DNA of 64,000 nt from Eledone cirrhosa. Its lineage: Eukaryota. The position numbers and the translations under genes are program-made. How positions within the stretch are numbered: the first letter of the stretch is position 1; each line of letters starts with the position of its first letter. Of the stretch, positions 1 to 35,778 are shown one piece after another. The DNA is taken from contig OZ024750.1 of NCBI GenBank assembly GCA_964016885.1, forward strand, positions 22,754,001 to 22,818,000, in the 5' to 3' direction. The notes below the pieces were generated by a model. It ran no database searches, had not been told where the DNA came from, and worked only from the letters and a program-made list of their open reading frames with translations.

Positions 1-560
1 CTCCAGTTGTGTCAAAGACAACTTCCCTAGTGTTGGTGCCTTGATAAAACACACCCAGTGCACTCTATAAAGTGGTTGGTGTTAGGAAGTGTATTCAGTC
101 ATAGAAACCTTGCCAAACAAAGGATTTGGGGGACCCTTTAGTTATGCCAGAAACACAATGACCTCTCTAGCTAGAGAGGTCATTGTGTGTGGCTAGTGCC
201 ATGATAAAATGCACCCAGTATACTTTTTAAAATGTAGGAACGTATGTGAGATGGGGTCACTGGTCAGTCTGTGAGGACAGAAGCTCTGAGAGTGCTAAGT
301 TGGTCTGTGATGACCCATCCAACCTATGTTAGCATGGAAAAATGACTGTTAAATATTGATAATTTAGATGCCCTTCCCCATACCATATGGTCATACTAAA
401 TAACATGAAGTACTCATTAAATGGAATCTTAATCTCTCTTTTTAGCAATTTGTAACCAAAGTAAATTAGCTGTAAGATAAGTAGATTGTTCTGAAAGCAT
501 GGGACTAACTATGGCATTGCAGGATCTCTGAAACAGGTGAAATCAATGATGTTCATATTC

Positions 561-910
561 CTATTGATAATGAAAATTATTGTATACAGTGCTCAGGTGA
601 ATGTCAGGTACATAGAATATTGTACAAATGTCAGGAACAGTGTATGAGTCATGATATACACACAGAAACGTGTGTGGAGGAGGAAAATTAGATGTAGTAT
701 TGGCGAATTTTGGGAAGCATGGAAGTTTTGAAGGATGCAGTGTACCGACGGCTAATAACTGATGCTGGTAGTTTGTTCCATGCTTCAGCAATTCTGAGTG
801 TGAAAAAATGTTTCCTTCAGATGAAACATCTACAAGGAGGGAATTCCAGAGGGCTGACATTCTAGGAAAGAAGGACTGGGTGGATAGGTTAGTGCAATGC
901 CTTGTGTGGA
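561..910 (-). mobile_element. CR1/L2-like LINE 3' fragment
   Basis: Translation contains FFPRMSALWNSL, a LINE ORF2 tail-like motif. The nucleotide sequence matches the copy at about 62600-62870. Confidence 0.6.
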
Positions 911-939
911 ATGGACAGAATATGAGTGATGAATAAATA

Positions 940-1280
940 AAAAATGGTTGTGAGTTCAATACTCGGACCGGGTGATGTGTTGTTTCCTTGAGCAAGACAC
1001 TTTATTTCACATTGCTCCAGTTTACTCAGCTGTAGAAATGAGATGATAGGACTGGGGTCCCTTTCATTCCACTGCAAAGTGATTGTGGAGGTGCCATGGA
1101 TAAAAAGCACTCAGCACTCACTGTAAATGAGGTTGGTGTTAGGAAGGGCATCCAGCTGTAGAAATCAAGCCAGAATCAGTCCACTATGAGCAAGATAAGG
1201 TCAGCCAACAGGACAACCCGTCTAACCCATGCTAGCGTGAAAGAATGGACGTAAAACGGTGATGATGATGATGATGATGA
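940..1280 (+). mobile_element. tRNA-derived SINE with (GAT)n tail
   Basis: B-box GAGTTCAA; body CCTTGAGCAAGACACTTTATTTCACATTGCTCCAG, near-identical to 35398-35700; ends GGACGTAAAACGGT(GAT)n. Confidence 0.75.
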
Positions 1281-1579
1281 CTCCATGGAAATATGAAACC
1301 AACAAACTCCAAGTAGCTGAGGTTACTGTAGTCATGATAGAAAATCAGAGACAGGAGACAGCATAACTGTGGGCCATAGATTACAGCATGTTGGTAGGTG
1401 ACTTATCAATCAATTGTGTGGCTTTTCCTATGAAGCCTATGTATGTGTATTGGCAGGAAGATCCTAGATATTGGAGCAGTGCTCCCTGTGGGTCTCACTT
1501 GAGTTATGTAGAGTTTTAGTAGTTATTGTGGTCTGAAGTATTTTCTGTGTCATGTGTATTTTTATTTTCTTTGGTACAG

Positions 1580-3116
1580 ATATCTAGTCTTTCTAATATG
1601 TCTGATCCACTACCAAACCCAGATAAGTTGGTTGATAATGTTGACACTACTTCTTACATGACAACAGCTGATAACCCACTTTTGGACACTTCTCTGCATA
1701 TTAAAGTACAAGGTAAACCATTTCCTGTCACTAACATTATATTAACTCTTGGATTTGGCAGTATCAGTAGAGCATCAGGCACCATGCTTTGCAGCATAGA
1801 GTTATGGCCCTTTACATTCCGGGTTCAAATCCCACCGAGGTTAACTTTGCCTTTCAGCCTTACAGGACTGATAAAAAATAAAGCACCAGTAATACACTGG
1901 GGTAATTGCTGGCCTTGTGCCAAAAGTAGAAACAATTATATTAACTCTTAACAACCTGTAATGATTTAGCAGAAAATATCTAAAAATAGGTTTGTTAATT
2001 CAAATGTTTATAGTACTGTTACTAGTAAATAGATAATTGGGAAATTTGTAGTATTAAAATAAATACTTTAATTTTTAATGTGATGCAGTCATAGTGTAGT
2101 TTTGTGCTTTTAAAGAATGTCTTGCTAATGTGGTTTCATGTGGTACAGAACCTTAAGAGTTAATTTTATGGCTACATGTATATTGCTAGGAATCTGTATA
2201 TTTTATCTAATTTTATTACTATATCCCTCCAAATTCTTGATTGTATTCAAAATTATTTGAAAATGATAAACTGTCTTTCATTAGAAATATGGTAACAGAA
2301 GGGTTGTGCTCCAAATATCAGATAAATAATGAGATAGTTATATTACTAAATTCCTCCTAATTCTTGATTATTTGAAAACGATTGGTAGTGTCTTTCATTA
2401 GAAATACAATAACAAAAGAGTTACTCATCATATTTATTATCCAAATGCATATATTTTTATATCTTTCAAGAGTTTCTGGCTGGTCTGAGAAGCTTTGAAG
2501 AGCAAATTGATAATGCACAACCTGAACATGTTGGAGCTGTGAATAAGGTTAAACAGCTCTTACCAGAACAAGATATTTCTAAACCAGAGCCACCTCCTTA
2601 CACACCCCTTCCACAAGGTAAGGAATGCCTGAAAGCATGACACCTTGTCAGATTAATGGTATTGATTGAGAATTTCTTTTTGGTTTACATCATTGTAGTT
2701 AGAACACGTTACAAACAGGCCCACATTAGATTCATCGTGGGAGAGGAGAAAATGAAAGCCAAGGAGGATCCAGAAGATAGAGCTAAATGAAGAAGTTTGT
2801 CATAAGTTCTGCAAGACTAACCCTTGCTTTAGCAAAGAAAATAGCCTTAATATGCTAACGAAAAGAAAGAGACCCTAATTATTCTGATGAAAGATGTATT
2901 AGAGGCACAGCCAAATAGTCCAAACAATTTCTGTTTATTTATTCATGTAAATTTTTACTGGTTTCAATCATTAGACTGCAGCCATGTTAGCACAATGTCT
3001 TGAAGGGATTTAATCAACCTTATTGACACTAGTGCTTATGTCTGCTACTTATTTTATTAATCTGTTTTTGTCAAAATGCAAAGTTATAGGATATAAACAG
3101 TAAACGTAAACAGAGG

Positions 3117-3204
<88 letters not shown>

Positions 3205-6200
3205 TATATACACACAAAAATATGTGTATATGATGGGCTTCTGCACAGTTTCCATCTACCAAATTTTATTCACAAGACATTGGTCAAAACACACAGCCAT
3301 GTTTTTCTGGCTTAGTCAGTGTAGGAAGGGAATGACCCTCACTGTTTTTTCAAGGACTCCTTGATTGGAGTGGGGGAAAAGAAGACAAAACCATGATACA
3401 CACGTTATCCTCGAAACAGTGACCTGGTTGTAATACTTGCATCAATGTGAACTCAGGTGATGGTGTTAAACTGTGTTATTGACTAAGTCATATAAAAAGA
3501 CAGAGTTCATCCAATGGCATTCTGCACAGTTTCGGTCTGCCAATTTTCATTCAGAAGGTTTAGTTCGACCCAAAGCTATGATAGAAGACACTTGCCCAAG
3601 GTGCTGCAGAGTGGGAATAAACTCCAAACTATGTGATTGCAAAGTAAACTTCTAAACCCACACAGTCATGCCTGCTCATATGATTGTTGTTTTGATTTCA
3701 TTTTTCCATACTATCCTGAGTGAGATGGTTCTTGAAAATTTGCATGTAAATTGTTGAGAGGAAATATTTATCATAACTAATTGCTTCTTTTATATTACAG
3801 AATTAGGACAGCCTGTCCCTCAAAATAGATCTGATGATGTAAGTACTCTATTAATTTGGTAACTTAGTTACTTATCAAAGAGTTAATTTTACTTATATCA
3901 TCGACTTAATCATTTACTAGTTAAATTATTAAACTCTTAATATCCTGTAATGATTGAGGAGAAAATATTCCAAAATTAGTTTGGTAATTCAAGTGTTTTT
4001 AGTATCTTTAGGTTAATGACTTCAATTTTTGATATAAAGTACTCATACTTTTGTACTTTTCAAACATGTCTTGCTAATGTAGTTACATGTGGTACAAGAC
4101 TAATAAAAGTATAAATAAATCATCCGTCAGTTTTACCAAGGATATTCCAGTTGTTTGTTCACCTGAACCACTTACTTGAATTATGTTGTAAGTGGTTGAG
4201 TATTTCACAGACACATATTAGGTAGAATGAGCATTACTCAGCGTGTGGCTATGCTGGCTGTTTGAATTAGAGGTACAGTCCATTCAACAGGATTCCACTG
4301 CCTATTGGATTAACTGTAACTATAATTCAGATGGCAAGAAGATGAGAGATGAGTACATGAGCTGAGGAGCAGCAGCCATTGTAGTAGTGGCACAAAAAAA
4401 AGAGAGGAAACATGTCTGTGAGCCAGACATTGGAGTATGTTGGGTGGGAGTGGGGATGACTTCATATCAATCGATCTTAGGATTTGACCTTAAGATGTCT
4501 CTAGAGTATGTAGCAACAGCATCATTTGAGTATGTTAGTGAGTGGCTTCAGACCAGTCAATTAAGTGGCTTTATTTGGATGTAGTCTAAGATGTCTGTGT
4601 ATCTGTAGCAGAATCACTGACCCAGGTGTTTGAGCAGTACTCTATTGTTGATCTTTCTTAAGTTATGTAGAGAATTAGTAATTGTTGGGGGTCTGAAGTA
4701 TTTTATGGCTCTGAAGAATAAGACCAGTCTTTGTGATATGGTTTAAGATGTCATTGGGAACAACCTCAGCATTGTCCTAGATATGTGAGCAGTACCCTAT
4801 TGTGGGTCTTAATGTGAGCTGTGTAGAGGGTTAGTAGTTGTTTAGGTCTAAAGTATTTTCTGATCCTGAAGAGTAAGATCAATCTTTGTTATTTGTCTTT
4901 CTGTTTTATTTGGTACAGAAGTGTAGTTTCTCTGATATGTCTGATCTAACGTCAGACCCACATCTGATGATTGGTGACAGTAGCCTTGGTTCTTACAAAT
5001 CTACTGCTGATAAAACATTTTTGGATACTTCTCTTCAAAATGAAATGCAAGGTAAACCCTTCTTAAAATATTTTCCAACTATATGTGTTCAAAACTGCAT
5101 TATTTAAAACTGTGTAAGATGTGGGCCTGCTGTACTTTTTACATCATTCTGATATGTCTTTTATTCTTTCTTTGCAGTCATTAGACTGTAGCCATACTGG
5201 AGCACTGACTTGATTTAGTCAATCATATAACCCCAAGAACTAATTTCTCAAGTCTCTTACTTATTTCATCAACTGCCTTTTTGTCAGTCATTATATGAAT
5301 ATCTAAATGTATATTTTCTTCATGTCTTTCAAGAATTTTTGAATGGCCTAACACACTTTGAGAGGCAAATTGAGTATTCGAAGGCTGTATCTAGCCAGGT
5401 CCTGACTCATTCTAAACAACCCTCATCAAAGACAGATACTGAGAAACACCTTTCACAAGACAATAAAGAGAAAAAAGAGAACGTGTTAACACTTCAAGAG
5501 ACCAAACCTAAATGTAGCAAGGCTAAAAGTCATGTTAAACCAGCATCTCCACAGCTAGATACTTACAAATCATTGCCACCTCCTTACACATCCATTTCAC
5601 AAGGTAAGGAAGCAACACTTGAAACTATTACACTTTGACTGGTTAATGGTCTTGTTTGATAATTGCTTACTTTTTTTAACCCTTTAGCATTTAAACCGGC
5701 TGTATCCGGCCAGAATTCTCTGACCTATTTCTGTTCAAACTGGCCATAACCGGCTGCTCATACTGACGTTATGGTATTGTTCTCAAAATACATAACATCA
5801 AAATCTTGTAGATTCAATATTATGTGAGATATTTTCACAGTAAAGGCTTTTCCTCACATAATTATAATAGTAAATATAGAGTAATGTGTATGCTAAAGGG
5901 TTAATTTCTTTTTGGTTTCCAACATTTTTATAACATTACAAAGAGACCTCCAATTATTCTGAAGATGGGGTTGTTAGAGTCACAGTAAATGAAGCAGACA
6001 ACTCCTATTTTATGTTACAATTGATGAATGACAATACTGAGTGTATCCAGTTTAGAATAAGCACACTGTATTTCTGTTTTGTAACAGCTGACTAAAAGGG
6101 TTGGTGCATCCAGCTGTAAAACATTGCCCCCAAAAAGGATCCTATATCATGGGACCTGCAAGGCTAATCCTTAAATAGCCTTAAAACGTTTGTTGTTGTA

Positions 6201-9200
6201 ATTGATGAATGATTGTATCATTGGTTAAAGATTTTCAATAAGCCAATCATTGGTTCATTGCATTCCTGATGTCAAGAGTGATTGGTGATAGTTGCAGCAT
6301 CAGTAGTGGTGATGATGATGCCTCTTTTACATTACAGAACCTCGACAAGATGGATTAAGTCAGTTTCCATTTCCTCCTCAGAATACAGCTGTAGTAAGTA
6401 CTCTATTAATTTAATAACTTCTCTATTTAATACATTTACTATGAGTGTGTTTTGAAGGAATCAGTTGTCAATCCATATAATCATTTCAAGCAAGAGGGTG
6501 TTGTAGTTTACTTGAATCATTGTGTAAAGTGTAGAAAATTGTGTTTTATTAGAAGGCTACAGCAATGCAAATAGGGCATTAAATGTTAAAAATAATAATA
6601 ACATTATAAACACCTCCAAGGTAACATTCCAACATCTTTGTTATCATTATATTTAATCTTTAGCATGCTAGAAATTTTTATGCATTACTTTCCTTGATAA
6701 TGCATTATGTTTTAACCCTTTAGCATTCACATTACTCTATATATACTATTATATTTTCATGGTAAACGCTTTACCTCGCATAATTATCTCACATATCGAA
6801 TCTATGAGATTTTGAAAGTATTTATTTTGAAAACAATCAGTTTGAGTGACCAATTACAGCCAGTTTCAACAGAAAAGGGTAGAGAATTCTGGCCAGTTTT
6901 GGGCGGTTTGAACATTAACGGGTTACGGCGACTTCATGCACCCTGAGCTTCAATAAGATTGATATTTAACGTCCCATTTGCATTGTTGCAACCTTGTAAT
7001 AAGACACATTATCATGTCAGACATTATTATTATGTGAAGGCTGGGGAGAAATGAGGCGATCATCCTCTGTCGGTTGTGTAATGTTAGTGTGCATGAATGA
7101 TAAAGCACAGATTATTTGAAAACTGTATGTTACGAATTAGAAGAATGTGTGTCAGAGAGATCACCCTGGTTCAGACACATAATGTGTATGGATGATGATC
7201 ATTGTGTGATGATGTGCCAAGACTTCCAAGTAGATAGAAGATGTTGTAGAGATAGGGCAAGGAAAACTTGGACAGTAGTGGTGATGAGCAAATTCCAGGA
7301 TGCTAAACCTCACAAAAGAGATGACAAAGGATGCATGACACTATGCTGGAGAGGACTTATCTAATTCATACAAACATGGAAAAACAGACATAAAATTTAT
7401 TATGCTAATGCCTAATGAAACATATAAACAGCTTTGTATTGTTTCAGATAGTTTGGTATCAAAAGAGTTAAAACATCAACTATATGTCTTTTGAAAAAGG
7501 TAAGAAACCACTCTGAATCAATTGTCAATCAGTATTGAGACAGGTGTAGCAGCTGGGCAATGGTATAGATGGTGTATCTATTTTGGTGCTTCTCTCTTCC
7601 ACCAGATTCTGCTCATGTTGACTTGGCCTTTTATCCATTCCAGATCAATACAAATAATTGGTTTTAGTACCAACAATTACAAGACAATTCCACATTATAC
7701 TCTTAATACAAAATTAAAATATCCTCAATTGTGGTTATGGTACAAAAGGCAGAAAAAGGAGACAGCATGTCTGGTGGGGTCAGAGGTTAAAGTATATTTG
7801 TAAAGTATATTAAGTTAATCTGTCATGTGAAGACATGTGGCCTGGTGATTAGAGTGTGGAACTCAGAATGATAAGGATGATTCCTTGAACAGGTTGCATG
7901 TGTTCTTGAACATGATACTTCAGTCTACATTGCTTTTCATGATAGGACTGAGGTTCCCTATCATTAAAACACTTTTATGAGGAACAACCTAAACCTGCAT
8001 AATTGTGAGCTGTAACAACATAAATATCTGTGTGTATGATAGGACTCTGGAACATTATTCCACTGTAGGTCTCACCAGAGATTTATAAAGAACTAGTAGT
8101 TATTGGAGGCTGAAGTGTTTTCTGGTCCTGAAGAAGACAACTAGTCTTTATGATGCAGTCTTTGCCATGTTATGTATATTTTATTTTCTTCAATAAAGAT
8201 GCTTCATCCTCCACGGGTTTATGATATAAAACCAGAATCAAGACAGCTGTTGGATATTAGCACAGGCTCATACAGGAATCTTCCAACAACTCAACCTTTC
8301 GTCATTGAGGATTATCCTGAACCAGTATACAATTTTTCTGAAACTAACAGAAAAAGTAAGCCATTCTCTATCATTTAGTAAATCCCTTGAAATGCACTTA
8401 CTAATTAATTGTAATAGAGTGTATTTCATTAAAAAGGTTAAATTTCTAATTTCATTTTTCAATCGTCATTTTATCTCTAAATGTATATTTTTTTAATGTC
8501 TTTCCAGATTTAATAATAGGTCTGAGTGATGTTGAACAACATGTAAAGGATTTAGAGTTGCAAAATAGCAATTATGTTAAACAGCTGTTACCAGTGCCAA
8601 ACTCATATATACCTGATACTCACACATCCCTTTCACAGGACAAAACAGGTAAGGAAGCAACAATTAAAAGTATTAAACTTCAGCGGGCTAGGAAAAGGGC
8701 TCCATTTGGTCATGACTGATCATGGGTTTTGTACCTATGGCTGGCTGACCAAGAGGAAGGGATCACTTATGACTGTTTTTCAGGGACTCAAAGACTGGTG
8801 TGGGAATAAGAGGACAAAACCACGATTCATATTTTATCCTCAAGCCAGTGACAAGATCCAAATACTTGCATCAATGGACTCTTGTGAAAGGGAAATGATT
8901 GTCAAGTGATGGTGTTAAACTAGGCAACAGATTAAGTTAACCATCTATTAAAAAGACATACTGACCATCTGATGGCCTTCCGCACAGTTTCCATCGACTG
9001 TATTTCCCTCTAAAGGCTTGAATCATCTCGAAACTATAGTAGAATATGCTGCAAAATGAAATTGAACCTAGAACCATATACCTAGAAAGCAAACTTCTTA
9101 ATCGTACAGTCATGTCTGCAACTATGATTGACGTTTTAATTCTATTTTCCTTGCTACCATGAATGAAATTGATCTTATTTGTGAATTGTTGAGAACAAAT

Positions 9201-12200
9201 ACTTTTTAATAACTGATTACCTCTTTATATTACAGGACCACAGCAACCACCTGCCTTTCAAAATGTACCTGGAGTAAGTACTCTGTTAATTTAGTAACTT
9301 ACTTACTTAAAATATCTACTGACACTCTAAGTCAATTCTCAATCATTAGGTTGACTTTGCTTTTCATCCTTACGGGGTCAATAAAATAAAGTACCAGTAA
9401 TGCACTGGGTAATTGCTGGCCTTGTGCCTAAAGTAGAAACAATTATTTATTGATCTTATGTAGTACAGACAGGTGAGGCAAAGATGCTTAACTCTATCTA
9501 TTTTGGTGCTTCTCTCTTCCATCACAACATCCATGTATAAGGGATTATATCAGATCTGTTTATGTTGAATATACCGTACCATTAGCCTTTCTATGCTGCT
9601 AACTACCCCTCCTTTCCTGGTCACATATTATTGACATGCAACACTCCCTCTTACTATCACCCTTCTTTATTGCTATCCATCACATATTTTCTCTTGTAGG
9701 TTTCACCTGAAATTTGTAACGGGTTAATAGTTATTGTGTTGGGGGAGGGGGGGGGGGTATTTTCTGCTCTGGAAGAGGAAGGCCAGTCTTTGTTATGTTA
9801 TATGTATTTCTGTTTTCTTTGGTTCAGATGTCTGGTTTTTCTGGCATTTCTGCAGTAAAGTCAGGAGCATTTGATATGTTGGATATTAGCATTGGTTCTT
9901 ACCAGAACCTTCCATCAAAGAAACCTTTAATCAATGATGAACATCTACAGACTTCTCAGGTACCAGTGTACAGTTTTCCTGAACCTAACACACAAGGTAA
10001 ACCATTCTCTATCATTGTATTACATTCATCCTTTCATTACCATATTTCTAATGAAACACACTACTTATGATTTTCAAATAATTTTGAAAATAATCAAGAA
10101 TTTGAGTAATTTAGCAATATAACTAACTTTCTCATTATTACATTAGTTTTTGGAATATAATTTAACAAAGGTTCTTACATAAAATTATGATAGTGTTTTA
10201 GATAAATATACACATTTTAACCCATATTTCTGCCAATGTTTTGCAAATCCTTTTGAAAATAATCAAGAATTTGAGTAATTTAGCAATATAACTAACTTTC
10301 TCATTATTACATTAGTTTTTGGAATATAATTTAACAAAGGTTCTTACATAAAATTATGATAGTGTTTTAGATAAATATACACATTTTAACCCATATTTCT
10401 GCCAATGTTTTGCAAATCCTTTTGAAAATAATCAAGAATTTGGAAGGATTCAGTAATATAACTGTTCCCATTGCAATATAACCCAACAAAGCTCTTACAT
10501 AAAATTATAATAGAAAGCTTTTAGATAAATGTAAACACTTTGAAATAAACAACTTCGTATTATAGAACCAGGGGTGTTTTCAGATGGTTTGATATCAAAA
10601 GAGTTAATATTGTGTCTATATTTACTTTGACAAACATCTGTATATTTTATCTGATTCAATACTAAAGGTGGAACAAGCCCATTACTCTTTAGTAATGATG
10701 AAGCAGAAGAATAATTAAATTGGTTAATCTCTGCTTTAACCGATTCATTATTTTATCAGTAGAGTGTTGTACAACATGTTTTATAGCTTAGAGGTATGGC
10801 CCTTTACGTTCTGAGTTCAAATTCCGCTAAGGTTAACTTTGCCTTTTATCCTTACGTGGTCGATAAAATAAAGTACCAGTCACACACTGGGGTCGATTTA
10901 ATCGACTTGCCTCTCCCCCAAATTTGCTGGTCTTGTGCCTATATAAGAAACCATTATATATCTAATAAAAGGGAAGTGGATTGACAGTATCAGTAGAATG
11001 TCAGACATTCTTTGTGCATAGAGTTACGTCTCTTAACATTCTGAGTTCAAATCCCATCCAAAACTGGAGTCGATTTAATTGACTTTCCCCTGCCCCAAAA
11101 CTCTTGTTATTGTGTCTAAATTAGAAATCTTTATCATATTTCTAAGCAAAATCCAGTTGATGGTGGTGGCAGTAGTTATTTGTATGCATATATATTTTCT
11201 TTCCAGCTTTAATGCTAGGTCTGAAAAGTATTGAGCAACGACTTGAAACTTTAGAGACTGAATGTAACCAGGCTCAACAGCTTTCACAAGACAATACAGG
11301 CAAATATGAATTCCTTAAAGGCATGACACTTCAGCAGGCTAATGGTATGTAATGGTAATTGATTTTGGAAGGGAAAGGTACAACATTTTTATAACATTAC
11401 TTTGTAAAGCAAGACAATATATGTAGTGTAGAAAAAAACAATACAATCTTGCCGAGAACCTAACAACTTCTCTAGTGCATGTGCCATGATAAAATGCATC
11501 CAGTACACTCTGTAAAGTGGTAATGCAGGTATCACAAAAAAATGCACCATGTACTATCTGCAAAATGGTAGTGCTGTGACCACAAAAAATGCACCCAATA
11601 CATTCTGTAAATGGATAGTGTTGGTGTCATGATGAAAACACCTGGTAAAGTGGTTGGTATTAGGAAGGGCATCCAACTGTAAAAACCATTTCAAAAATGA
11701 AATGCCATAGTTCCCTGCCCAGTCTAGTCTCAGATCGTGTCCAACCCATGCTAGTATGGAAAGCAAATGTAAAATTATGATGATGTTAGTGATACAGTAT
11801 AGACATCCTGTCTTCCCCACTTACAACGTAGCAAATATTACTATTTGAAAGTAATGAGATATTATGCCTCCTTAAACTAACTAGTTCATATCCATCATGT
11901 TCCTGTTTTGACTCAACTTTCAAATTCTTTTGTGATGTTTAACCCTTTAGCATTAACATTACTCTATATTTACTCTTGTATTTTCACATAATATCGAATC
12001 TATGAGATTTTGATATTATTTATTTTGAGAACAATACCTTAACATCTGTATGAGTGGCCAGTTTCAGCCAGTTTAAACAGAAAGAGATGAGAGAATTCTG
12101 GCCGGATATGGCTGGCTTAAAAGCTAAAGGGTTTTAATTATTCTACAATGATATCAAGTTTTCAGAGTGTTAGATAGAATGTTGTGCAGTATTAATTCTG

Positions 12201-15200
12201 GCTTTCTGAGTTCAAATCTTGCTAAGACTAACTTTGCCTTTCATCCTTTTGGAGTTGATAGAACCAGTCCATTCTTCCCTTTACCTTATAACTATGGTAA
12301 TTTAACTTCAGTTGTTTACACAGAAGAATTAACACAGTAAATTCATAGCTCATCTCATTCTATTCATGTAGAGTTAATTTCCTCCCTAAGTGCAACCGAA
12401 AGAAGGCATGCACTATTGCAGCAGAAAATAAAGGAACTGAAGCAAATGGCTCGGAATGCTGAGAGAAACCGGGTGAACCTACAGAAGGGATTAGAAAACC
12501 AAAGACTTGGTGCAGTTGATTATACTCCATCATCAGAACCACGGGTCTCTCTCAACCAGTTTACAGGGATTGAACGGAGAATATTACAACACTCTGTCAT
12601 TGAAAATATAGCTAAAGTAAGTTCTCTGGTTTGATCCATTCCAGATCAATACATTTGAATAAACAAAGCCATTTTTTAGATGTTTTCTGCTAAATCATCA
12701 CAAGATCTTAAGAGATAAACAACTGCACCTTATTCATTTCCCCATGTTCATAAAATAAGTATCAGATTTTAATGTTATTCTGTTTTATGAAGTTTGAAAT
12801 TTTCTATTTCTATAGGATCGAATTCTGGTGTTAGAGCAGTCATTGAAAATTGAGAAGAAACAAAAAGATATACTGGAAATGCGTGTTTTAGAGGTAAGAG
12901 AAGGAACTTTTTATTTAATGTATATTTGGTTTATATACTTATTATAAACCAAATATACATTAAATAAAAAGTTTGTGATGTGTATAAAGCTTGTTATGGA
13001 ACTCACAAACCTAACCCCCACTTTAGCAAGGAAAATAGCTAAAGATAGCTAGAGTATGATGGGAAAAACAATGTTTGGGGGGGGGGGGGGGGGTTATTTG
13101 TGTGTTGATTTGTTGGTAATATGTGAAGGTGCATGAATTGATGGTTAGGGTGTTTGGCTCATAATCACAAGGTCATGAGTTTGATTCCCAGCAGTGCATT
13201 ATATCCTTGAGCAAGGTACTTTATCTCATATTGCTCCAAACCACTCAGCTGAAAAAAGTTGAGCTGTACCTGTAATTCAAAGAGCCAGCCTTGTTATACA
13301 TTGTGTCACACTGAATCTCTATAAGAAGTACATTAAGAGAACACGTGTCTATAGAATGCCCAGCCACTTGCTCATTGATTTCAAGAGCAAGCCATTCCAT
13401 TAATCAAATAACTGGAATACTCATTGTCAGAACCAATGGAGGTAAAACAACAATAATTAATGACATTTTATGAAGCTGTTTAACATTTTGTTAAAGACAA
13501 TAATTAACTTTCTTATTAATTATCTGATGTTTAGAACATAACAAACAGTTCTGTATTGGTGAACCAAGGGTGGTTTCATGTAGTTTGATATCAAAAGGGT
13601 TAATTTTCAAATTTCAAATGATCTGTTTAACTTTTATAGTTATTTTTTACAATTTTCTTTTTTCAGTTATCAACCCAATTTAATCATATAGATACAAATG
13701 TACAAAATGTTTTTGCTTCCTTGAAATCAGAAAAGGCTTTCCTTCTGCCCTCTGTAGGTGAGATAACAAGCTCACCTCTAAACAACTGTCATAACCTCGA
13801 TGACCTGTTTGTTCACCTCCAGAAAGAATTTGCTCAAATGACATGGTAGGAACCAACATTTCTTCTGAAACCTTGTTATGTTTGAGATTTGTCAACTTTT
13901 AAAATATTTTATTACATACGAATTTTTAAGGAAATATATAAATTCATATATAAATTCATGTTTGTATGAGCATGTGTGAGAAAGAGAAAGAGATTGCATG
14001 ATTGGTTGAAATTTAAATTCTTCAAAAATTAAAGTTTCTAGTGCATTAAAAGTGAACACATATAAATATATGATAATTGCTGTTTAACAGTGCAAAATAA
14101 GTTTTGGAACATTATACTTTTTAAATATTAGGTTAAATTTTTGTTTAATAAAATCTTTTAACCCTTGTTTTAAAGTATTCATTTTTATCTAAAAACCTTA
14201 GTAATGAAATAATTAATAATAATCCCTAAAAATTCTCAATTGCAATATAATGTATTTCATTAGAAATACTGTCATGAAAGGGTTCAAATTGAATCTTTCA
14301 AAAATCTTTGAGAACAGGAAACACCAGTATTTAACGGAGCAGCTTAATAGAACTACTGATAGAAAATTACAAGAGGATGTTGAAATTGAACTTGACAACC
14401 TAGTGACTCAGATGGAAATTAAAGCAATGCAAATGATTAAGATTCGCAAAGCTCTTGAAAAGGTAAGAAAACTTATTGCTAATGTCTCTGTTTCTGTCTC
14501 TGTAACTCCCTCCTCCTCCTTCTCCACCACCACCACCACCTTCACCGTATCACTGTTTATTCAATTTTATCTATTTGTCTTCCTTATGTCAACTTACCAC
14601 ATGTAAATCCACTGTCTACCCTGAGTCCACTTATCATCATCATCACCATTTTATGTCCGCTTTCCCATGTTTGCATTGGTTGGACAACGAGAATGATGAT
14701 TATGTTGGCAGGAGTTTTCTGGCTGTATGCCCTTCTCATTACCAACAACTTTGCAGTGTAAACTGAGTATTTTATTATGCCATTGGTTTACAGGGGTGCA
14801 TGTACCCTGTACAGTTTTATTTATTACTCCAGTTCTCTGAGTTCAAATCCCACCAAGATCAACTTAAACTTTCATCCATTTGGGATCAATAAAGTACATT
14901 CAGGAAGGTTGATTGGTGGAATTGTTAAAACATGTTAGTGTACACATATGTGTGTCATGCCTTAGTGGTTAGGGTTAGGGTGTTCTGCTCATGGTCGTAA
15001 GAGAGTGAGTTCATTTCATTAACTGGGCGACATGTTTTTCTGAGCAAGATGCTTTATTTGACGTTGCTCCAAGACACTAAGCTGGCAAAAATTGGATGTA
15101 CCTATAATTCAAGGGGCCAACCTTGTCATACTGAATCTCTTTGAGAACGATGTTAAGTGTGCATAAGTCTATGGAATGCTCAGCCACTTACATGCATGTT

Positions 15201-15450: not shown

Positions 15451-16264
15451 TGCACTCATACTATATCAAATTTATTTGCAAGATTGATTTTTAAGCAAAA
15501 TGGCAGAATATACAATTGATAAGAGGATTCATCTTATTTACTGTGTGTAGAAATACATTGAACTCAAAATATTATCAGCAAAACCCATTATTTTCCTTGA
15601 GTATTTACTGAGCAACAGTCACTGGCTCTACCAACAGTTTTTATGGATTGTGGATGGCAAACAGCTTAAAACAGTTGATATTTTCACCTACAAAACACGG
15701 TCTCACGACCATTCCCGCATCAAATGGAACAAAACCGTCTAACCCATGCTAGCGTGGAAGATGGACGTTAAATGATGATGATGATATATATATGTTATCA
15801 TTATCATCATCACTATTTAACATCTATTTTCTATCCCTACATGAGTTTAACAGGTTGTCATGTACTGAGGCTAAACTGCTCAGATGACATTTTGCTTGTA
15901 TGCTCCATTTTTGGTTTGGTTTTTACAGCTGGATGCCTTTTCTAATGCTAACCACTTAACATGTACTGGGAGCATTTTATTGTGACTCTGGCTTTACCAC
16001 CTTACTGGGTGCTTTTTGTTGTGCCACTAAAAAACAATTCATTTACATGTACTCAATTCTATTATATATTTCTCTATTTCTTTGCAGTTAAAGAAGGAAT
16101 CAAAATTTGAAAAAAGGAAAAAACTAGAAACTGGTCAATCAATATGTAAAAGCAAACCTATCTTCATAGGGGACAATTTGAGGAGTTTAAAAAAAGCTGA
16201 GAGGAATGTGTCTATGAGAAGATTGCTTGCTACTTTGCGTCAAGAGGATTTGAGATGGGTGTAA
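1580..16264 (+). CDS. CEP57: Centrosomal protein 57-like (CEP57/CEP57L1 family), 16 coding exons, about 745 aa, N-terminus internally repeated; 5' end not resolved
   Basis: Phase-consistent AG/GT exons: 1580-1712, 2471-2617, 3801-3838, 4919-5051, 5334-5603, 6338-6393, 8199-8355, 8508-8648, 9236-9273, 9828-9996, 11207-11344, 12372-12616, 12816-12893, 13667-13845, 14318-14462, 16088-16264 (stop). The translation resembles CEP57 landmarks as recalled. Coiled coil: FPEPNTQALMLGLKSIEQRLETLE, ELISSLSATERRHALLQQKIKELKQM. Microtubule-binding domain: LDDLFVHLQKEFAQMTWKHQYL...LQEDVEIELDNLVTQMEIKAMQMIKIRK. C-terminus: LRQEDLRWV. Confidence 0.85.
1945..2159. mobile_element. TTAA-flanked MITE, family C (piggyBac-like ends)
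   Basis: TTAA-CTCTTAA...TTAAGAG-TTAA. Related copies near 3930-4100 and 26098-26240. Confidence 0.55.
3122..3197. repeat. (TA)n microsatellite
   Basis: Pure TA run. Similar runs at 15384-15447 and 41763-41827. Confidence 0.97.
5680..5900. mobile_element. TTAA-flanked MITE, family B (piggyBac-like)
   Basis: TTAA-CCCTTTAGCAT...ATGCTAAAGGG-TTAA. Further copies at about 6716-6922, 11943-12131, 51588-51786, 56696-56891, 59963-60154. Confidence 0.75.
7110..7390 (+). mobile_element. RTE-clade LINE 3' fragment (degenerate)
   Basis: WFRHIMCMDDD...RARKTW, a decayed form of the RTE ORF C-terminal motif. Confidence 0.65.
10082..10442. repeat. 169-bp tandem duplication within a family A MITE
   Basis: The unit starting TTTTGAAAATAATCAAGAATTTG recurs at 10082, 10251 and (partial) 10420. 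Confidence 0.85.
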
Positions 16265-16926
16265 TCATTGGTATCGGTATTTTCAAAGTACTTATTTGAT
16301 AGTTAAAAACTACGAGGAAATGACTGACTGCATAGTTTCAGAATGTTGGTATTTCTGAACAGGAATATTAGAATGGCTGGAGTAATAAGCTTGCAACAAG
16401 CCGCGTCCTTAATAACTCTGTTTTGATTTGTTGTCATAGCAAAATTACTTTATATAACGAGTACCCAGTGCCACTGAAGAAGGTTTAAACATCACACAAA
16501 TCTCATTTACTCTCTGTTGTAACTTAGAGAACTTTTTGCCTGGACCAAAGAAGCCGGCTGCTGTTTCTTTTGTTTTCTGTTTATATTTTTGTTCTTTAGA
16601 TATTTCTGATATCTAAAGATTCTTGTACAGTTTCTCAAGTAATAGTAAATATAATCACAGCTAACAAGTACAGTTTCCAGAGTTGTAGTAAATATATTCA
16701 CAAGCAACAGGTAAAGTTTCAAGAATCATCATCATTTAATGTCTGCTTTTCTATGTTAGCATAGGTTGAATGTGTCATCACAAACCAAGTAAACACTCAA
16801 TTGGAGCCACTGTCCTAACAGATGTGTCAGGGGCCACATCTTGCTCACCTATATTCCTACATTTTACTAAATGTAGTGGGTACATTTTATCATGGCAGCA
16901 GCCTTGACACAACTGAAGTTTCCAGA

Positions 16927-17112
16927 GTTACAGTAACCTTTGGGAGCCATTAGTTTCTATAGTTACAGTGACCTTTGGGAGCCATTAGTTTCTATAGTTA
17001 CAGTAACCTTTGGGAGCCATTAGTTTCTATAGTTACAGTAACCTTTGGGAGTCATTAGTTTCTATAGTTACAGTAACCTTTGGGAGTCATTAGTTTCTAT
17101 AGTTACAGTAAT
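16927..17112. repeat. 35-bp minisatellite, about 5.3 copies (degenerate copies to about 17240)
   Basis: Unit GTTACAGTAACCTTTGGGAGCCATTAGTTTCTATA at 16927, 16962, 16997, 17032, 17067. Confidence 0.93.
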
Positions 17113-19262: not shown

Positions 19263-21762
19263 ATGTCGGGTTACTCAGATAACAATGTACAACCAGTCAT
19301 TTTTCTCTCGCATGGTGGTGGACCTTCATTCTTCATGGACGTCAAGAAATATCCAGGTATGCGTGGGATGGACCGGGACTCTGATGCTGCAGAATTCCTA
19401 CGACAGCTATCAAGAACTCACTTGAAGAAACAACCGAAGGCAATCCTGGTCATTAGTGCCCACTGGGAAGAAAATATCCCATGCGTCATGGAGGATCAAA
19501 AGCATTCCTTGTACTTCGACTACTACGGATTTCCCAAGAGCATGTATGAACTGAAATGGCCCGCGGTAGGAGCTCCAGCTGTCGCTGCTCGTGTCTCCGA
19601 ATTATTCAAAACACACAGTATACAGAGCAAGCAAGTACGTGATCGAGGTTTAGATCATGGGACGTTTGTGCCCCTCATCTTGGTTTGGCCAGAGGCCGAT
19701 ATACCAAGTAAGTAAACATCAGGTCTATATTGCGTTTATAGCCTATTTTGTCCGTCTGTCAAAAACATTGTAAAATTTTCATTTAGAATTCATCTAACAG
19801 ATGTTGGGGGGGGGGGTTCTAAAATGCTTTCGTTCATACCAGAAATGAACGTTTTCTATTTATCTGGCCGTCTGTTTATCTTTCTATCTACTTGTCTCTC
19901 TAATCCATCTGTCTCTCTTTATTTATCTCTCTACTTACCTCTATCCACCTGCCTCTGTTTATCACTATCTACTTGTCTCTATTTAGCTCTATATCTATCT
20001 CTATGAAAGATGGGTGAAAGTGGCGAGAATGGCCCGTGTGAATGGGCCTTCACTCTACATCAGACTATAGGTGAGGAAGATGAAAGACCAAGGGAGCACC
20101 CCTTCTCTGTGCTCCTGAGGAGAAGGGTTGCACACTTTTTTCGGGGGTGTGTGCGACCCCCCAAGGCGCCTCCTCTCTATTGAGGATTTTGTTAAAAATT
20201 TTATTTTTTGTTATATCTTATTTTATTTTTATATTTTGTTATTGCCTCCTCCTTATTGAGGACGCCTTTTTGTGTAAACTCCCCCCTTTGTACTTGTCCC
20301 ACTTTTGATGCCCTAGTGGCAAATAAAAGAAACATATCTATCTCTGAATCCACCAACAGAGCTATGTTATGGTATGGTGAAGAAAGCGAATATTACTTAT
20401 TCCGTCCTCAAACCACTCCTTATCTTAAAACATGGAGTACATATAACGCGACTGTGAAGTGTCTTTAATCAAAAGTCTGCTCGATTATAGCTAAGCAACA
20501 TCAACAATAACAGATCAATGAACGACGTAGCTCAATATAAACAAAGACAAATATTATCATTCTTTACTGGATTTAACCATCGCTACATCTAAGGGTTTCA
20601 ATCGATCGTATTGATCCCAGTTCTAATTTCAGTCTGGTATATATTTAATCGATCTCTATATATCGGATTTCCACGTAACTTTTTTTTTACACTAAGGACG
20701 TAACCTGAGCACAAATTAGCAAATGCTGGTTCTGTGGATTGACGGTCATCATTTTTTAAGTATGGAAGGATATCAGAGATGTAATCAAATTCGTGAATAT
20801 TTTTATGGAGAGTATTGACAGACACAGCCGGGTTGGAAGTGGTATCAAGACTGGTGAATTTAGGATCAGTGGGCTGGAATTTACAGACGACAAGCACTTG
20901 ATAAGTTTCCTGCCCAGTGTTGTAAAGGCTGAGACACTCATCATCTCAAGGAATCATGCGCAGTGCACTTTACATGTGAATGAAGTTCAATATCTTGGGG
21001 CTGTGTTCACAAGTGATGGGAGGCAGGAGGCTGAATTAAATGCAAGAATTGCAGGAGCTAGTGCAGTAAATAGGAATATTTTAAAACTGGCAGTTTTAAA
21101 ATAGGAATATTTTAAAACTGGCAGTTTTATCACAAAACCAACGGAGGTTTCAAGCAAGTTGGTATCAAAAGAATGAAATTATGTTTCGAACACCAGACAT
21201 AATTATATTACTAAATTCTTGATTAATTTCAAAATTGTTTGTAAATCATAGGGAATGTCTTTTATTAGAAATATAGTGACAAGCGGGTTAATTATGAGAT
21301 ATATTAAGATTGGATTCTATGTTATACTCTTTTTTCTAATTTATTTCAGTACTTCAAGTATCATTAAAGAACAATTTGAATATCACCAAGCACCAAGAAA
21401 TTGGTGAGGCATTATCAGATCTACGTAAAGAAGGAATACTTATCGTTGGATCTGGTTTTATGACTCACTCTGATGAGAAAGCAAAATCTACTGATGATGT
21501 GTTTGAATGGGCAACTGAATTCAAGGCATGGGAACGTGATGTATTCTGCAACCCTGAATTATCCACAACAGAAAGAAAAAAACGAATACTCGAATGTGAA
21601 TCTTTTCAGTTTTTCCACAGAGCTCATCCTCGTATTGAGCACTTTCTACCATTGGTCGTTGCTTCTGCAGCAGCTGGTTATGTCAGTGGAGAGGCAATCT
21701 TTTCTCAGTTTGTATCACCTAGTTTATTGTTGGAACATATATTGTTCAAATCTGACCCTTAA
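19263..21762 (+). CDS. Extradiol ring-cleavage dioxygenase, LigB / 4,5-DOPA dioxygenase (DODA/YgiD)-like, 285 aa, 2 coding exons
   Basis: Exon 19263-19707 (donor GTAAGT, phase 1) joins exon 21350-21762 (acceptor TTTCAG) in frame. Family motifs: FLSHGGGP, ILVISAHWE, YFDYYGFP, RGLDHGTFVPL, WPEADIP-ILQVSL, IGEALSDLRKEGILIVGSG-x3-H, HPRIEHFLPL. Confidence 0.93.
20003..20333 (+). mobile_element. 5'-truncated L1/Tx1-like LINE end with 12-bp target-site duplication, in the dioxygenase intron
   Basis: ATATCTATCTCT at 19991-20002 and 20334-20345. The insert encodes ERWVKVARMARVNGPSLYIRL* and ends AATAAAAGAAAC. Confidence 0.6.
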
Positions 21763-27338: not shown

Positions 27339-30300
27339 TCATGAATTAACAGATATTTGAAATGGTAAGAAGAAAGACTGATCAGTGGCATTAATTATGG
27401 TAGTTGATGGGTTTCCAATAGTGTTTGTGAAAGTAGTGACATTATTAGTTATTATAGGCACTGGACTGTAAATAGACTCAACACAAGGACTAACAAATTG
27501 TGTGTCAATTAAGTCAGGCATTAGGTGTTCTAGAGCAGATTCTGAGTGTTTTACACTATAGTATTTTTTGTACGGCTTAGTTCTTACTTTGAGAAATTCT
27601 TCTTTTGATAAAACATGAATCCCTGCAGCAGTAAGTAATTTGCCATGTCTAGTTTTCAAATGTCTTTTGTATGTGTTACGTGTTTTGAATTTTTGCAGAC
27701 AGTCGCTGCATTCAAATGGAGTCTCCCCAGTGTGTCGTCGCAAATGTTCCTAGACAAAAGAAAAGAAGAGAAGGAGAATTAATATTTTGCTAAAGCTATA
27801 ATATACTTTGAAAAAGGGAAGAATAGAAGATGATTGTCACATCAAATCAAGGAAACAAAATTTCCATTGGTTTTTCCCTTGCTAATATTATCTGCTGTTT
27901 GTACCTCCTCACAGAAGGAAGTGGGATTTGGGCTCAAAATTCACAGAGCCAGATCAAATACTACAAAGCAGCCCATTTGGCTCTAAAACAATTTTGCCAA
28001 TCAACTACCTCTGGACTGGTATTTTATCAATCCTAAAAGGATAAAAGGCAGAGATGACCCCAGCAAGATTTGGATTCAGAGCACAGAGAGCTGGAACAGA
28101 TACTGATGCATTTAACCTAATGCACAAATGACTGCTAATTTGCTAAGTTATAATACTAAAGTCATTAATATAAGTCAAACACAAAATTGTCCTCAGCGAT
28201 ATTTGAACTTAGAGTACAGTGAGCTTGAACAAATACCAAGGAATTGAACCCATGCCTGAACAACTTTGCCAGTTTGACATCCATAAATGACAACTAAAAG
28301 GAAAAGGAAAAGTCACAAGTTTACCTTAAAATGGCTTGGATGTCTAAATTTTCTACCACAATCTTTGCAAGTGAAGCGGCTCTGGTTGTTGTGAATTAAC
28401 ATATGATAGTTGAGACTGTGTTGTCTTGTAAATGTTGTATTGCACAGAAGGCACACAAATGGTTTAATTCCTAATTAAAATTGAGAAAATTAATATAATT
28501 AACAGAAATACATATTTCTATTTTGATGCATAAATTTATAGAATTTTATTGTTTCATTACATTAAACATTTCAATTATGTCTTTAATTTTGTTCCATTGT
28601 TATGGTTGCTTAAAGCACCCCCCACCCACCCACATACACACACAAACACACAAAAAAAAAACTCAGATGCCATGTCAAATAGAATAATGTTATAGATTAG
28701 TAAGGAGTCATAATATATATGATATATATAAACTCCATGATCATCAGCTGTCAAAATAGACATTGTCAGTTTTGAATTCTACTGACAGTACTGCTAGTCA
28801 ACTCGAGGTCACAGTGTTCGACAAGGCAGTCAAACACCATCTTAGTGTGCTTTGTGAAACACATTGACCTAGAATGAACCAGCAGTACCATTAGTAGGGG
28901 CTGAAACTGTATCTACATTTCAATGACTGATGATCGATGATCATGGAGTACCTGCTGCTAATTTTGCAATATTATCCATGACACATGCAGCTTCCCCATT
29001 CTTCTGTTGTTAATTTGCACCATATTACCAAAACCATTCTCCTCCTTTGAATGAAACAGTTCTAGTCCTGTAGAAGCCATTTTCATATTAAATAGTGTAT
29101 ATACTCTACTATGTATTGAGTACCTTACTTACTGTCGTTACTCCTGATTGAACCTGGGATACACACACACACAGAGATATATGAGCCGTTACTGACCACG
29201 TCAGTACTTAATCAGAGGTACTGTCCCCCTAAACCAGCCAGGAGTCATGTTTTGCTAATATACATTCCAGTTTTGACACAATTTTTACAGCTGGATGTCC
29301 TTCCTAATGCCAACTGCTTTACAGTATGTACTGGGTGCATTTTATCATGGTACTGGCATCTGGGATATTGTCATATCCTCGACACAACTGAAAAGTTTTC
29401 TCAACCCTTTTTTGGCTACATGGTTACTGGTGATGGTGCAGATTGCAAAATACTAACAGGAAAATACTAACAAGGAAACAAATTTATGAAAGCAAAACAC
29501 CCAGTTGAAGAAAAGCTTAGAGTGAAAAATTACAACTAAGCATTGTTGTGATTATAAGAATGAAAAAAATGACAATTTTTAAGATACTTACCAGCATGAC
29601 TACGATAGTGATACATTAGAGTTGCTGCAGCTGTAAAGGTTTTGTCATCACAGATTTGACAAACAAGAGCTAGTTTGTCATCTTTCCTACGACTTTTCAG
29701 TTCTCTAATGCAGCGTAGTGCTGTTCTCTACAACATACAGGAGATATAATAATGGTTTCTGATTTAGGCAGAAGGTGAACAATTTTAGGGGAGGAGAAAG
29801 TCAATTAAACTGACCCCAGTGCATTACTGGTACTTTATTTTATCGACCTCTGTAAGGATGAAAGGCAAAACTATCGAATTCATACAGGAGATATAATAAT
29901 AATAATTTCTTAATTGGCCACAGGGGCCCAAAGTGTTATGAGCATTACAAAGATGAAAAAAAAAACACTAAGTGGAGTTTACATTGAGTAAAAGGAAGGG
30001 GACATCAACAAAGAGAAAACAGTAGATATAACAATAAGAGTAATTGTAATAATGATAACAATACTAAACAATAACAAATGTCAACTAGGCAAAGTTCCCC
30101 AATAGGAAGGGGCTGCATTGTAGGTCCTCTAGAAGTCTGCTTAAACTGTCCTAGTTAACACTGAGGCACTCCCAGGCCATAATTGCTCATACCTTCAACT
30201 AATCCACTATAGAAAGTAAGCATTGATAATATTAATACTTACCCTTTCTAATTCAGCAGCTGTATTCTTTTCAATATTTTTTTTCTTCTTTTTAGTACAA

Positions 30301-35734: not shown

Positions 35735-35778
<44 letters not shown>

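What the first reader, a model, noticed from the sequence alone, without database searches (positions are those of the whole stretch)
1580..11344. CEP57 N-terminus built from a fourfold tandem duplication of a three-exon module
Seen: exons recur as A-B-C, A-B-C, A-B-C, A-B with identical phases (0-1, 1-1, 1-0). A1 and A2 are both 133 nt; C1 and C3 are both 38 nt. Flanking introns are homologous (TTATGTAGAG..TAGTAGTT..TCTGAAGTATTTT before A, TATATTACAG before C, GTAAGTACTCT after C). Each B exon starts with a diverged copy of the first CEP57 coiled-coil helix: FLAGLRSFEEQI, FLNGLTHFERQI, LIIGLSDVEQHV, LMLGLKSIEQRL. Known: vertebrate CEP57 has one copy of this segment. Inference: three extra modules add about 370 aa, have stayed open despite strong divergence, and are phase-symmetric, so whole modules could be skipped.
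Basis: partly seen in the sequence, partly recalled or inferred. Interest (0 to 1): 0.7.

Follow-up and report, generated by a model that had tools for sequence, protein, structure and literature searches.

The report
Octopod CEP57 repeats its partner dock
In this octopus-type genome the centrosome gene CEP57 carries five tandem copies, at least three of them spliced in, of the exon pair whose human counterpart grips the partner protein Cep63 (three copies in Octopus, one in humans), so each protein likely offers several docking helices instead of one, although binding is untested.

Summary
The A-B exon pair occurs five times, not four: a further A-B-C module lies just upstream of the window. 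All 20 predicted coding exons join into one open 849-residue CEP57 frame, 467 residues of it from four extra modules. One spliced 3,090-nt contig holds B2, A4 and three core exons, with gaps exactly matching the exons between them, so modules are spliced to the core. The repeat is older than this species: Octopus proteins carry three copies and the Argonauta model two. Every copy keeps hydrophobic residues at the four positions matching the human Cep63-binding core, and dN/dS is moderately below 1. The following dimer coil has decayed in most extra copies. Module skipping has no support. The genome also holds two diverged CEP63-like genes. Best reading: extra, probably weaker, Cep63 docks on flexible linkers; a tolerated spacer is nearly as likely. 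Squid, nautilus and bivalves could not be checked.

The parts
1..1579 (+). Intron between C0 and A1. The gene begins upstream of the window, in G000:C10: likely first coding exon 22748431-22748448 (ATG plus 5 codons, phase 0), A0 22751618-22751750 (133 nt), B0 22752661-22752786 (126 nt, helix start FLAGLRSFEELI), C0 22753774-22753802 (29 nt)
1580..1712 (+). Exon A1, 133 nt
2471..2617 (+). Exon B1, 147 nt, helix copy then Pro-rich linker
3801..3838 (+). Exon C1, 38 nt
4919..5051 (+). Exon A2, 133 nt
   Evidence: the 4-base overhang before B2 in the contig fits an exon ending CAAG
5334..5603 (+). Exon B2, 270 nt, helix copy plus about 41-residue insertion
   Evidence: listed as a piece of spliced contig record 9, 0 differences
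6338..6393 (+). Exon C2, 56 nt
   Evidence: part of the exact 392-nt gap between B2 and A4 in record 9
8199..8355 (+). Exon A3, 157 nt (long type, AAG acceptor)
   Evidence: part of the 392-nt gap
8508..8648 (+). Exon B3, 141 nt
   Evidence: part of the 392-nt gap
9236..9273 (+). Exon C3, 38 nt
   Evidence: part of the 392-nt gap
9828..9996 (+). Exon A4, 169 nt (long type)
   Evidence: listed as a piece of record 9
11207..11344 (+). Exon B4, 138 nt, terminal copy continuous with the Cep57 centrosome-localisation coiled coil
   Evidence: exact 138-nt gap in record 9; the equivalent residue in Octopus is Pfam Cep57_CLD position 1
12372..12616 (+). Core exon, Cep57_CLD middle
   Evidence: Pfam PF14073 E 0.0034, under the cut-off alone; 47% to O. 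bimaculoides CEP57; piece of record 9
12816..12893 (+). Core exon, 78 nt
   Evidence: exact 78-nt gap in record 9
13667..13845 (+). Core exon, start of microtubule-binding domain
   Evidence: piece of record 9; match to P0002 393-425
14318..14462 (+). Core exon, Cep57_MT_bd
   Evidence: Pfam PF06657 E 0.00037, under the cut-off alone; exact 145-nt gap in record 9
16088..16955 (+). Last exon: coding to stop at 16262-16264, then 3' UTR to at least 16955
   Evidence: piece of record 9; 60% to the O. bimaculoides C-terminus

Best explanation
This is the single detected CEP57 gene of an octopod, whose N-terminus was lengthened by tandem duplication of a whole exon-plus-intron module, and each extra copy likely works as an additional, weaker docking helix for Cep63 (possibly also for the pericentrin PACT domain) on a flexible linker. 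Shown: five A-B copies and four C exons in one open frame; modules 2-4 spliced to the core in one transcript contig; 3 copies in Octopus and at least 2 in Argonauta; hydrophobic residues kept at four helix positions in all 16 copies compared. Inferred: B corresponds to human exon 3 (residues 68-128) and those positions to I69, L73, L76 and I80. The A-B pair alone shifts frame (0 to 1), so the small C exon (1 to 0), which has no counterpart at the terminal copy, was needed for the repeat to be readable. The dimeric core coil would hold the upstream helices in pairs, each pair able to form a 2:2 bundle with a Cep63 N-terminus, so valency at the centriole wall would rise with copy number. Untested: any binding.
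For: Open frame and phases. Spliced contig of run X4, record 9: pieces B2, A4 and three core exons; gaps of 392, 138, 78 and 145 nt equal the exons between them; the 606 nt left at the 5' end equal A2+C1+B1+A1+C0+B0. Only this locus matched O. bimaculoides CEP57 in the genome, 6 matches among 32 candidates scored. Pfam Cep57_CLD begins at the first residue of the terminal B and finds 3, 2 and 2 stretches at E<=10 in P0008, P0012, P0013. Core positions read FLFI, FLFI, FLFI, LLVV, LLIL in this gene's copies and FLFL, LLFM, LLYV/LLFV in relatives; human core residues and exon 3 from PMC13720213. dN/dS 0.57 (bootstrap 0.36-0.94) over modules 0-2, and 0.21-0.23 over the 13 helix codons in those three pairs; neutral mutation left the 467 codons stop-free in 15 of 2000 runs at 0.10 and 0 of 2000 at 0.15 changes per site. 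In Octopus an extra (penultimate) copy is the best conserved: 100% over 34 residues between two species against 71% for the terminal copy, and it is predicted as a 40-residue helix (block pLDDT 54-79). The short-type module is shared with Octopus (100/99 support). Two CEP63-like genes and a PACT exon exist in the genome.
Against: The second half of the human segment (E86-L108, the homodimer part) has decayed in copies 0-3, with 1-4 prolines in residues 13-40. dN/dS intervals reach 0.94, pairs are not independent, and one pair (1 vs 2) gives 0.85 overall and 1.27 in exon A; pooled helix value over all five copies is 0.45 (0.16-0.94). No single B exon matched Cep57_CLD at E<=1, and B4 alone, the five-B profile and the four-protein octopod profile matched no solved Cep57 N-terminal chain at E<=10, so the residue mapping rests on position and pattern. 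Any amphipathic helix shows i, i+4, i+7, i+11 hydrophobicity. RNA support is one contig from one run of unrecorded library type in the same study as the DNA runs; B0, C0, A1, B1, C1 and A2 are inferred from length only, and A0 and the first exon have no RNA support. The AlphaFold model is of the Octopus protein, from 4 sequences, mean pLDDT 47.
Confidence: 0.45

Rival explanations
1. Tolerated spacer: only one copy per species docks partners; the other copies are translated, so the frame is kept, but serve as a mostly disordered extension whose helix remnants are decaying.
For: Modules are S/L/P/Q/D/E-rich, mostly low-confidence coil in the Octopus model, only 22-55% identical to each other, with large insertions and loss of the dimer half. 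Copy number varies 2-5 among octopods. Purifying signal is moderate and the intervals approach 1. The whole gene evolves fast: 45-60% identity to O. bimaculoides exon by exon.
Against: The helix is the slowest part of modules 0-2 (dN/dS 0.21-0.23 against 0.47-1.27 in exon A). The short-type copy has kept its helix start in both lineages. All 16 copies keep four hydrophobic core positions.
Confidence: 0.38
2. Splicing dial: phase-symmetric A-B-C blocks are skipped by tissue or stage, tuning length or valency.
For: Each A-B-C block is a multiple of three (318, 459, 336 nt). Intron flanks are conserved as much as or more than the exons. O. bimaculoides model X3 starts at module 2. The contig's 5' end falls exactly at the B0 boundary if all exons are included, which would fit a branch there (inference).
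Against: The one contig includes module 3 whole. None of 12 Octopus models lacks an internal module; 10 have all three helices and 2 differ only at the N-terminus. Contigs drop rare forms and the joint table was swamped by repeats, so absence is not shown.
Confidence: 0.12
3. Dead duplicated exons, or a false duplication in the assembly, upstream of a normal one-copy CEP57.
For: A3 has a weak AAG acceptor; each A exon has an early Met codon; the best DNA run may be the source of the assembly and is not independent.
Against: Exon copies differ by 25-55%, far beyond alleles; spliced contig with exact exon sums; no stop in 467 codons; all 14 module exon lengths keep phase; independent Octopus and Argonauta proteins carry the repeat.
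Confidence: 0.03

Closest known systems
Octopus and Argonauta CEP57/CEP57L1-like database proteins (O. bimaculoides XP_014778168.1, O. sinensis XP_036356561.1, O. vulgaris CAI9716914.1, A. hians GAB1598605.1)
   Same: Orthologous gene; same repeated A-B unit; short-type copy first, long-type copies after.
   Different: Three copies (two in the Argonauta model, which may be cut at the 5' end) against five here; the short-type copy is triplicated here; their names do not mention a repeat. In Octopus the best-kept helix is the penultimate copy; here the terminal copy scores best against the long-type profile.
Human CEP57 exon 3 / PINC motif (residues 68-103; Cep63- and pericentrin-binding; PMC13720213 sections read, PMC6389942 passages read)
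   Same: B starts at Pfam Cep57_CLD position 1, as human exon 3 starts at residue 68; same hydrophobic spacing as I69, L73, L76, I80; same domain order downstream.
   Different: One copy in human (as these papers describe it, and recalled); here five, most without the homodimer half; no direct sequence match of a single B exon to a human chain.
Tandem exon duplication that multiplies a docking segment in a scaffold protein (general class; scan notes on shark CENP-C and CENP-T are unchecked analogues)
   Same: Whole exon-plus-intron block copied, frame kept, binding segment repeated.
   Different: Here the ancestral pair is not phase-symmetric and needs a third exon of unknown origin; copy number varies between genera.

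Membership tests
CEP57/CEP57L1 family | Cep57_CLD (PF14073) N-terminal coiled coil | tested here: met
   Window exon alone E 0.0034, under the cut-off; its best protein hit P0002 (E 3e-10) passes at 54.3 bits against 28
CEP57/CEP57L1 family | Cep57_MT_bd (PF06657) C-terminal microtubule-binding domain | tested here: met
   Window exon E 0.00037, under the cut-off alone; P0002 passes and matches human Cep57 chains 4l0r and 8ibh at E 3e-9
CEP57/CEP57L1 family | Single orthologous locus rather than a stray paralogue | tested here: met
   All 6 matches of P0002 in the genome fall in this gene; the search scores only the best 32 candidates
CEP57/CEP57L1 family | One PINC/Cep63-binding helix per chain (the human architecture; a trait of the variant, not of family membership) | tested here: not met
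   Five copies here, 3 in Octopus, 2 in the Argonauta model
Cep63-binding helix (human Cep57 63-120) | Hydrophobic core at positions 69, 73, 76, 80 | tested here: met
   16 of 16 copies hydrophobic at all four positions, mapping inferred from exon start and Pfam position 1
Cep63-binding helix (human Cep57 63-120) | Homodimer half, residues 86-108 | tested here: inconclusive
   Kept in Octopus copy 2 and Argonauta copy 1; proline-interrupted in copies 0-3 of this gene; partial in copy 4
Cep63-binding helix (human Cep57 63-120) | Forms a 2:2 bundle with Cep63, or binds the PACT domain | not testable with these tools
   Needs biochemistry
CEP63 family (two genes on contig C23) | CEP63 N-terminal domain PF17045 | tested here: inconclusive
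   Single exons: best Pfam hit CEP63, E 0.0006 and 0.0011, 19-20 bits against cut-off 33; best PDB hit human Cep63 9i7q_B, E 0.003; full gene models not built

The most novel reading that the evidence does not exclude
Octopods have turned CEP57 into a multivalent centriole scaffold with two to five partner docks whose number changes between lineages, and the diverged docks are divided between two duplicated CEP63 proteins, a second, independent version of the vertebrate Cep63/Deup1 split (recalled) with the specificity built into repeats of one CEP57 chain.
Probability: 0.18. Interest if true: 0.78.

Novelty: new variant of a known kind. Interest (0 to 1): 0.52.

Why it matters
[quoted passage not shown] Cep57 assembly depends on multivalent contacts (PMC11194501). 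A lineage that naturally carries two to five copies of this exon offers a ready series for asking how docking valency and linker length set the size and stoichiometry of the inner pericentriolar layer. It also shows how a frame-shifting exon pair can become repeatable by gaining a small phase-restoring exon. If the extra copies are only spacer, it remains a modest annotation point about a fast-evolving centrosome gene.

Tried and rejected
Protein search with the core exon among longer proteins: none of 93 candidates scored. Searches with the Octopus core and with a four-sequence profile returned only three octopod clusters each, so no squid, nautilus or bivalve CEP57 was obtained; this is a sensitivity limit, not absence. 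Pfam Cep57 searches of the genome were too insensitive to find even this gene; the 17 PF14073 hits on contig C2 were not examined and are not counted as paralogues. No RNA holder listed; X4 is read as RNA only because record 9 is spliced. Complex prediction of B1 (36 aa, two copies) with a CEP63-like exon (two copies): no answer, score 0.01, no evidence either way. Origin of exon C: no alignment clearly above shuffles to the intron after B4, to the first exon region or to the intron before A0; best case C3, 3 of 100 shuffles as high. Atlas look-up of the core exon alone was uninformative; the whole Argonauta protein gave CEP57 clusters. P0003, P0004 and P0011 were dropped as unrelated hits. 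The order of long-type copies could not be resolved; the tree leaves them open. An oyster paper mentioning Cep57 (PMC3348941, two passages) did not bear on structure.

Full report
Observation. A blastn of these exons against 80 kb of upstream DNA plus the window found one more A, B and C copy 2.4-0.2 kb before the window and none further up. A candidate first coding exon lies about 3.2 kb before A0. All 20 exons join into 849 codons without an internal stop; four extra modules supply 467 residues. The five A-B copies are 22-55% identical as protein. A profile made only from eight long-type modules of relatives scores each of the five modules above all 300 of its shuffles.

Identity of the gene. 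Two core exons give Cep57_CLD and Cep57_MT_bd as best Pfam hits, each below the cut-off alone. The core exon's best hit among 1.84 billion representatives is O. bimaculoides CEP57L1-like (E 3e-10; the other 2 of 3 hits were unrelated). That protein passes both Pfam cut-offs, matches solved human Cep57 C-terminal chains, and matches only this locus in the genome. The organism is therefore taken to be an octopod, from homology alone.

Transcript. Laying 2 of the 4 listed runs showed one 3,090-nt contig of run X4 (depth 15) in pieces on B2, A4 and three core exons. The distances between pieces equal the exons between them: 145, 78, 138 and 392 nt; 392 is reached only by C2+A3+B3+C3 among the 16 subsets. 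The 606 nt left at the 5' end equal A2+C1+B1+A1+C0+B0 exactly, but other sums with a partial exon are possible, so modules 0-1 are inferred. The piece table is cut and the joint table is dominated by repeats; rare skipped forms could not be seen. This is one sample, of unrecorded library type, from the study that also holds the DNA runs.

Relatives. Seven O. bimaculoides, two O. sinensis, three O. vulgaris models and one Argonauta model were read. One model per species was scanned: three helix starts in each Octopus species and two in Argonauta; Pfam finds 3, 2 and 2 Cep57_CLD stretches at E<=10 in P0008, P0012 and P0013. Of the 12 Octopus models, read by eye, 10 hold all three helices, 2 start later, none lacks an internal module. 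A tree of all 16 copies splits short-type (copies 0-2 here, Octopus copy 1) from long-type (copies 3-4 here, Octopus 2-3, Argonauta 1-2) with 100/99 support; the rest is largely unresolved. So at least the short/long split predates the split from Octopus, and the short type was likely triplicated in this lineage. The Argonauta model begins where O. bimaculoides model X3 begins, so two is a minimum. No decapod, nautilus or bivalve sequence was retrieved.

What is repeated. In the relatives Cep57_CLD position 1 is the first residue of the terminal B segment. Human exon 3 encodes residues 68-128 and carries the Cep63-binding core I69, L73, L76, I80; residues 86-108 form the homodimer (PMC13720213: abstract, four results sections and first part of the discussion read). 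Residues 68-103 are also needed for centriole localisation and pericentrin binding (PMC6389942, passages). Cep57 assembles through multivalent contacts (PMC11194501, passages). Counting from the exon start, 16 of 16 copies have hydrophobic residues at the four core positions. The mapping is inferred: single B exons do not match Cep57_CLD or a solved Cep57 N-terminus directly. The dimer half is proline-interrupted in copies 0-3 and best kept in Octopus copy 2 and Argonauta copy 1. An AlphaFold model of the O. bimaculoides protein (4 sequences, mean pLDDT 47) shows three N-terminal helices separated by low-confidence coil; the first two have usable confidence, the terminal one does not. Supplementary figures of these papers (heptad assignments, PINC alignment) were not seen and may bear on the mapping.

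Selection. dN/dS over 65 ungapped codons of modules 0-2 is 0.57 (bootstrap 0.36-0.94); the three pairs give 0.46, 0.44 and 0.85. Over the 13 helix codons these pairs give 0.21-0.23; pooled over all ten pairs 0.45 (0.16-0.94, 923 of 1000 resamples computable). Random mutation left the frame stop-free in 145, 15 and 0 of 2000 runs at 0.05, 0.10 and 0.15 changes per site, while pairwise dS is 0.5-0.7. At least eight length changes all keep phase (my count; about 1 in 6,500 if random). Between O. bimaculoides and O. sinensis the penultimate helix region is 100% identical over 34 residues, the terminal one 71%, the rest of the coil 93%. The modules are thus under selection as coding sequence; selection on docking is suggested, not shown.

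Phase. A (0-1) plus B (1-1) would shift the frame if repeated. C (1-0) restores it and has no counterpart at the terminal copy; no source for it was found. It is likely a recruited exon.

Partners. The genome has a PACT exon and two CEP63-like N-terminal exons 17.5 kb apart in opposite orientation, 58% identical. Two further colinear coding matches suggest two diverged genes (output cut, read in part). Each exon's best Pfam hit is CEP63, below cut-off; the one searched against solved structures has human Cep63 as best hit, aligned over L25-I32. This is a lead, not a gene model.

Literature. Searches for CEP57 with octopus or cephalopod returned one unrelated paper each; broader searches (listings only) showed nothing on this repeat. 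The library lacks most subscription papers. The scan had no note at this place or on look-alike sequence.

Verdict. Real, spliced, variable-number repeat of the functionally central exon of CEP57 in octopods: a new variant of a known gene. Multivalent docking 0.45, tolerated spacer 0.38, splicing dial 0.12, dead or false 0.03. Interest 0.52.

Noticed in passing
G000:C23:7490449-7490631 (-) and 7508133-7508306 (+); L026, L027: Two CEP63-like N-terminal exons, head to head, 58% identical, with two more colinear coding matches downstream: a likely CEP63 gene pair in an invertebrate.
   Followed up: partly
P0008 residues 159-192 and 290-323 (O. bimaculoides): In Octopus the best-conserved docking helix is the penultimate copy, not the one continuous with the core coil.
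   Followed up: partly
window 8199-8648 and 9828-11344: Module 3 resembles the terminal Octopus copy (45-48%) more than the penultimate (35%), while module 4 is equally like both (45-51%); a mosaic, gene conversion or lineage-specific re-duplication is unexplained.
   Followed up: partly
window 13667-14462: These two exons (324 nt together, frame-neutral) hold the microtubule-binding domain; 7 of 12 Octopus models lack that domain by early ending or skipping.
   Followed up: no
window 1486-1579, 4645-4918, 8063-8198, 9695-9827: Intron sequence before A1-A4 is 70-76% alike, more than the A exons themselves (46-68%), and is doubled before A2; possible splicing element, though gapped short alignments inflate identity.
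   Followed up: partly
window 19266-21762: Two-exon LigB-type ring-opening dioxygenase gene just downstream (Pfam PF02900, E 1e-17 for exon 1).
   Followed up: partly
window 10067-10404: Recent 169-nt tandem duplication (98% identical) inside the A4-B4 intron.
   Followed up: no
window 12512: The spliced contig reads A where the window has G, absent from the DNA run; the runs are from different samples, so likely an allele.
   Followed up: no
G000:C2:13590076-13621412: Cluster of 17 weak Cep57_CLD profile hits in tandemly repeated long open frames; probably a coiled-coil-like or simple repeat, not examined.
   Followed up: no
window 27342-38900 (-) and 50752-60973 (+): Exon-like frames of a zinc-finger gene on the minus strand and of a charged, Lys/Glu-rich gene on the plus strand.
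   Followed up: no
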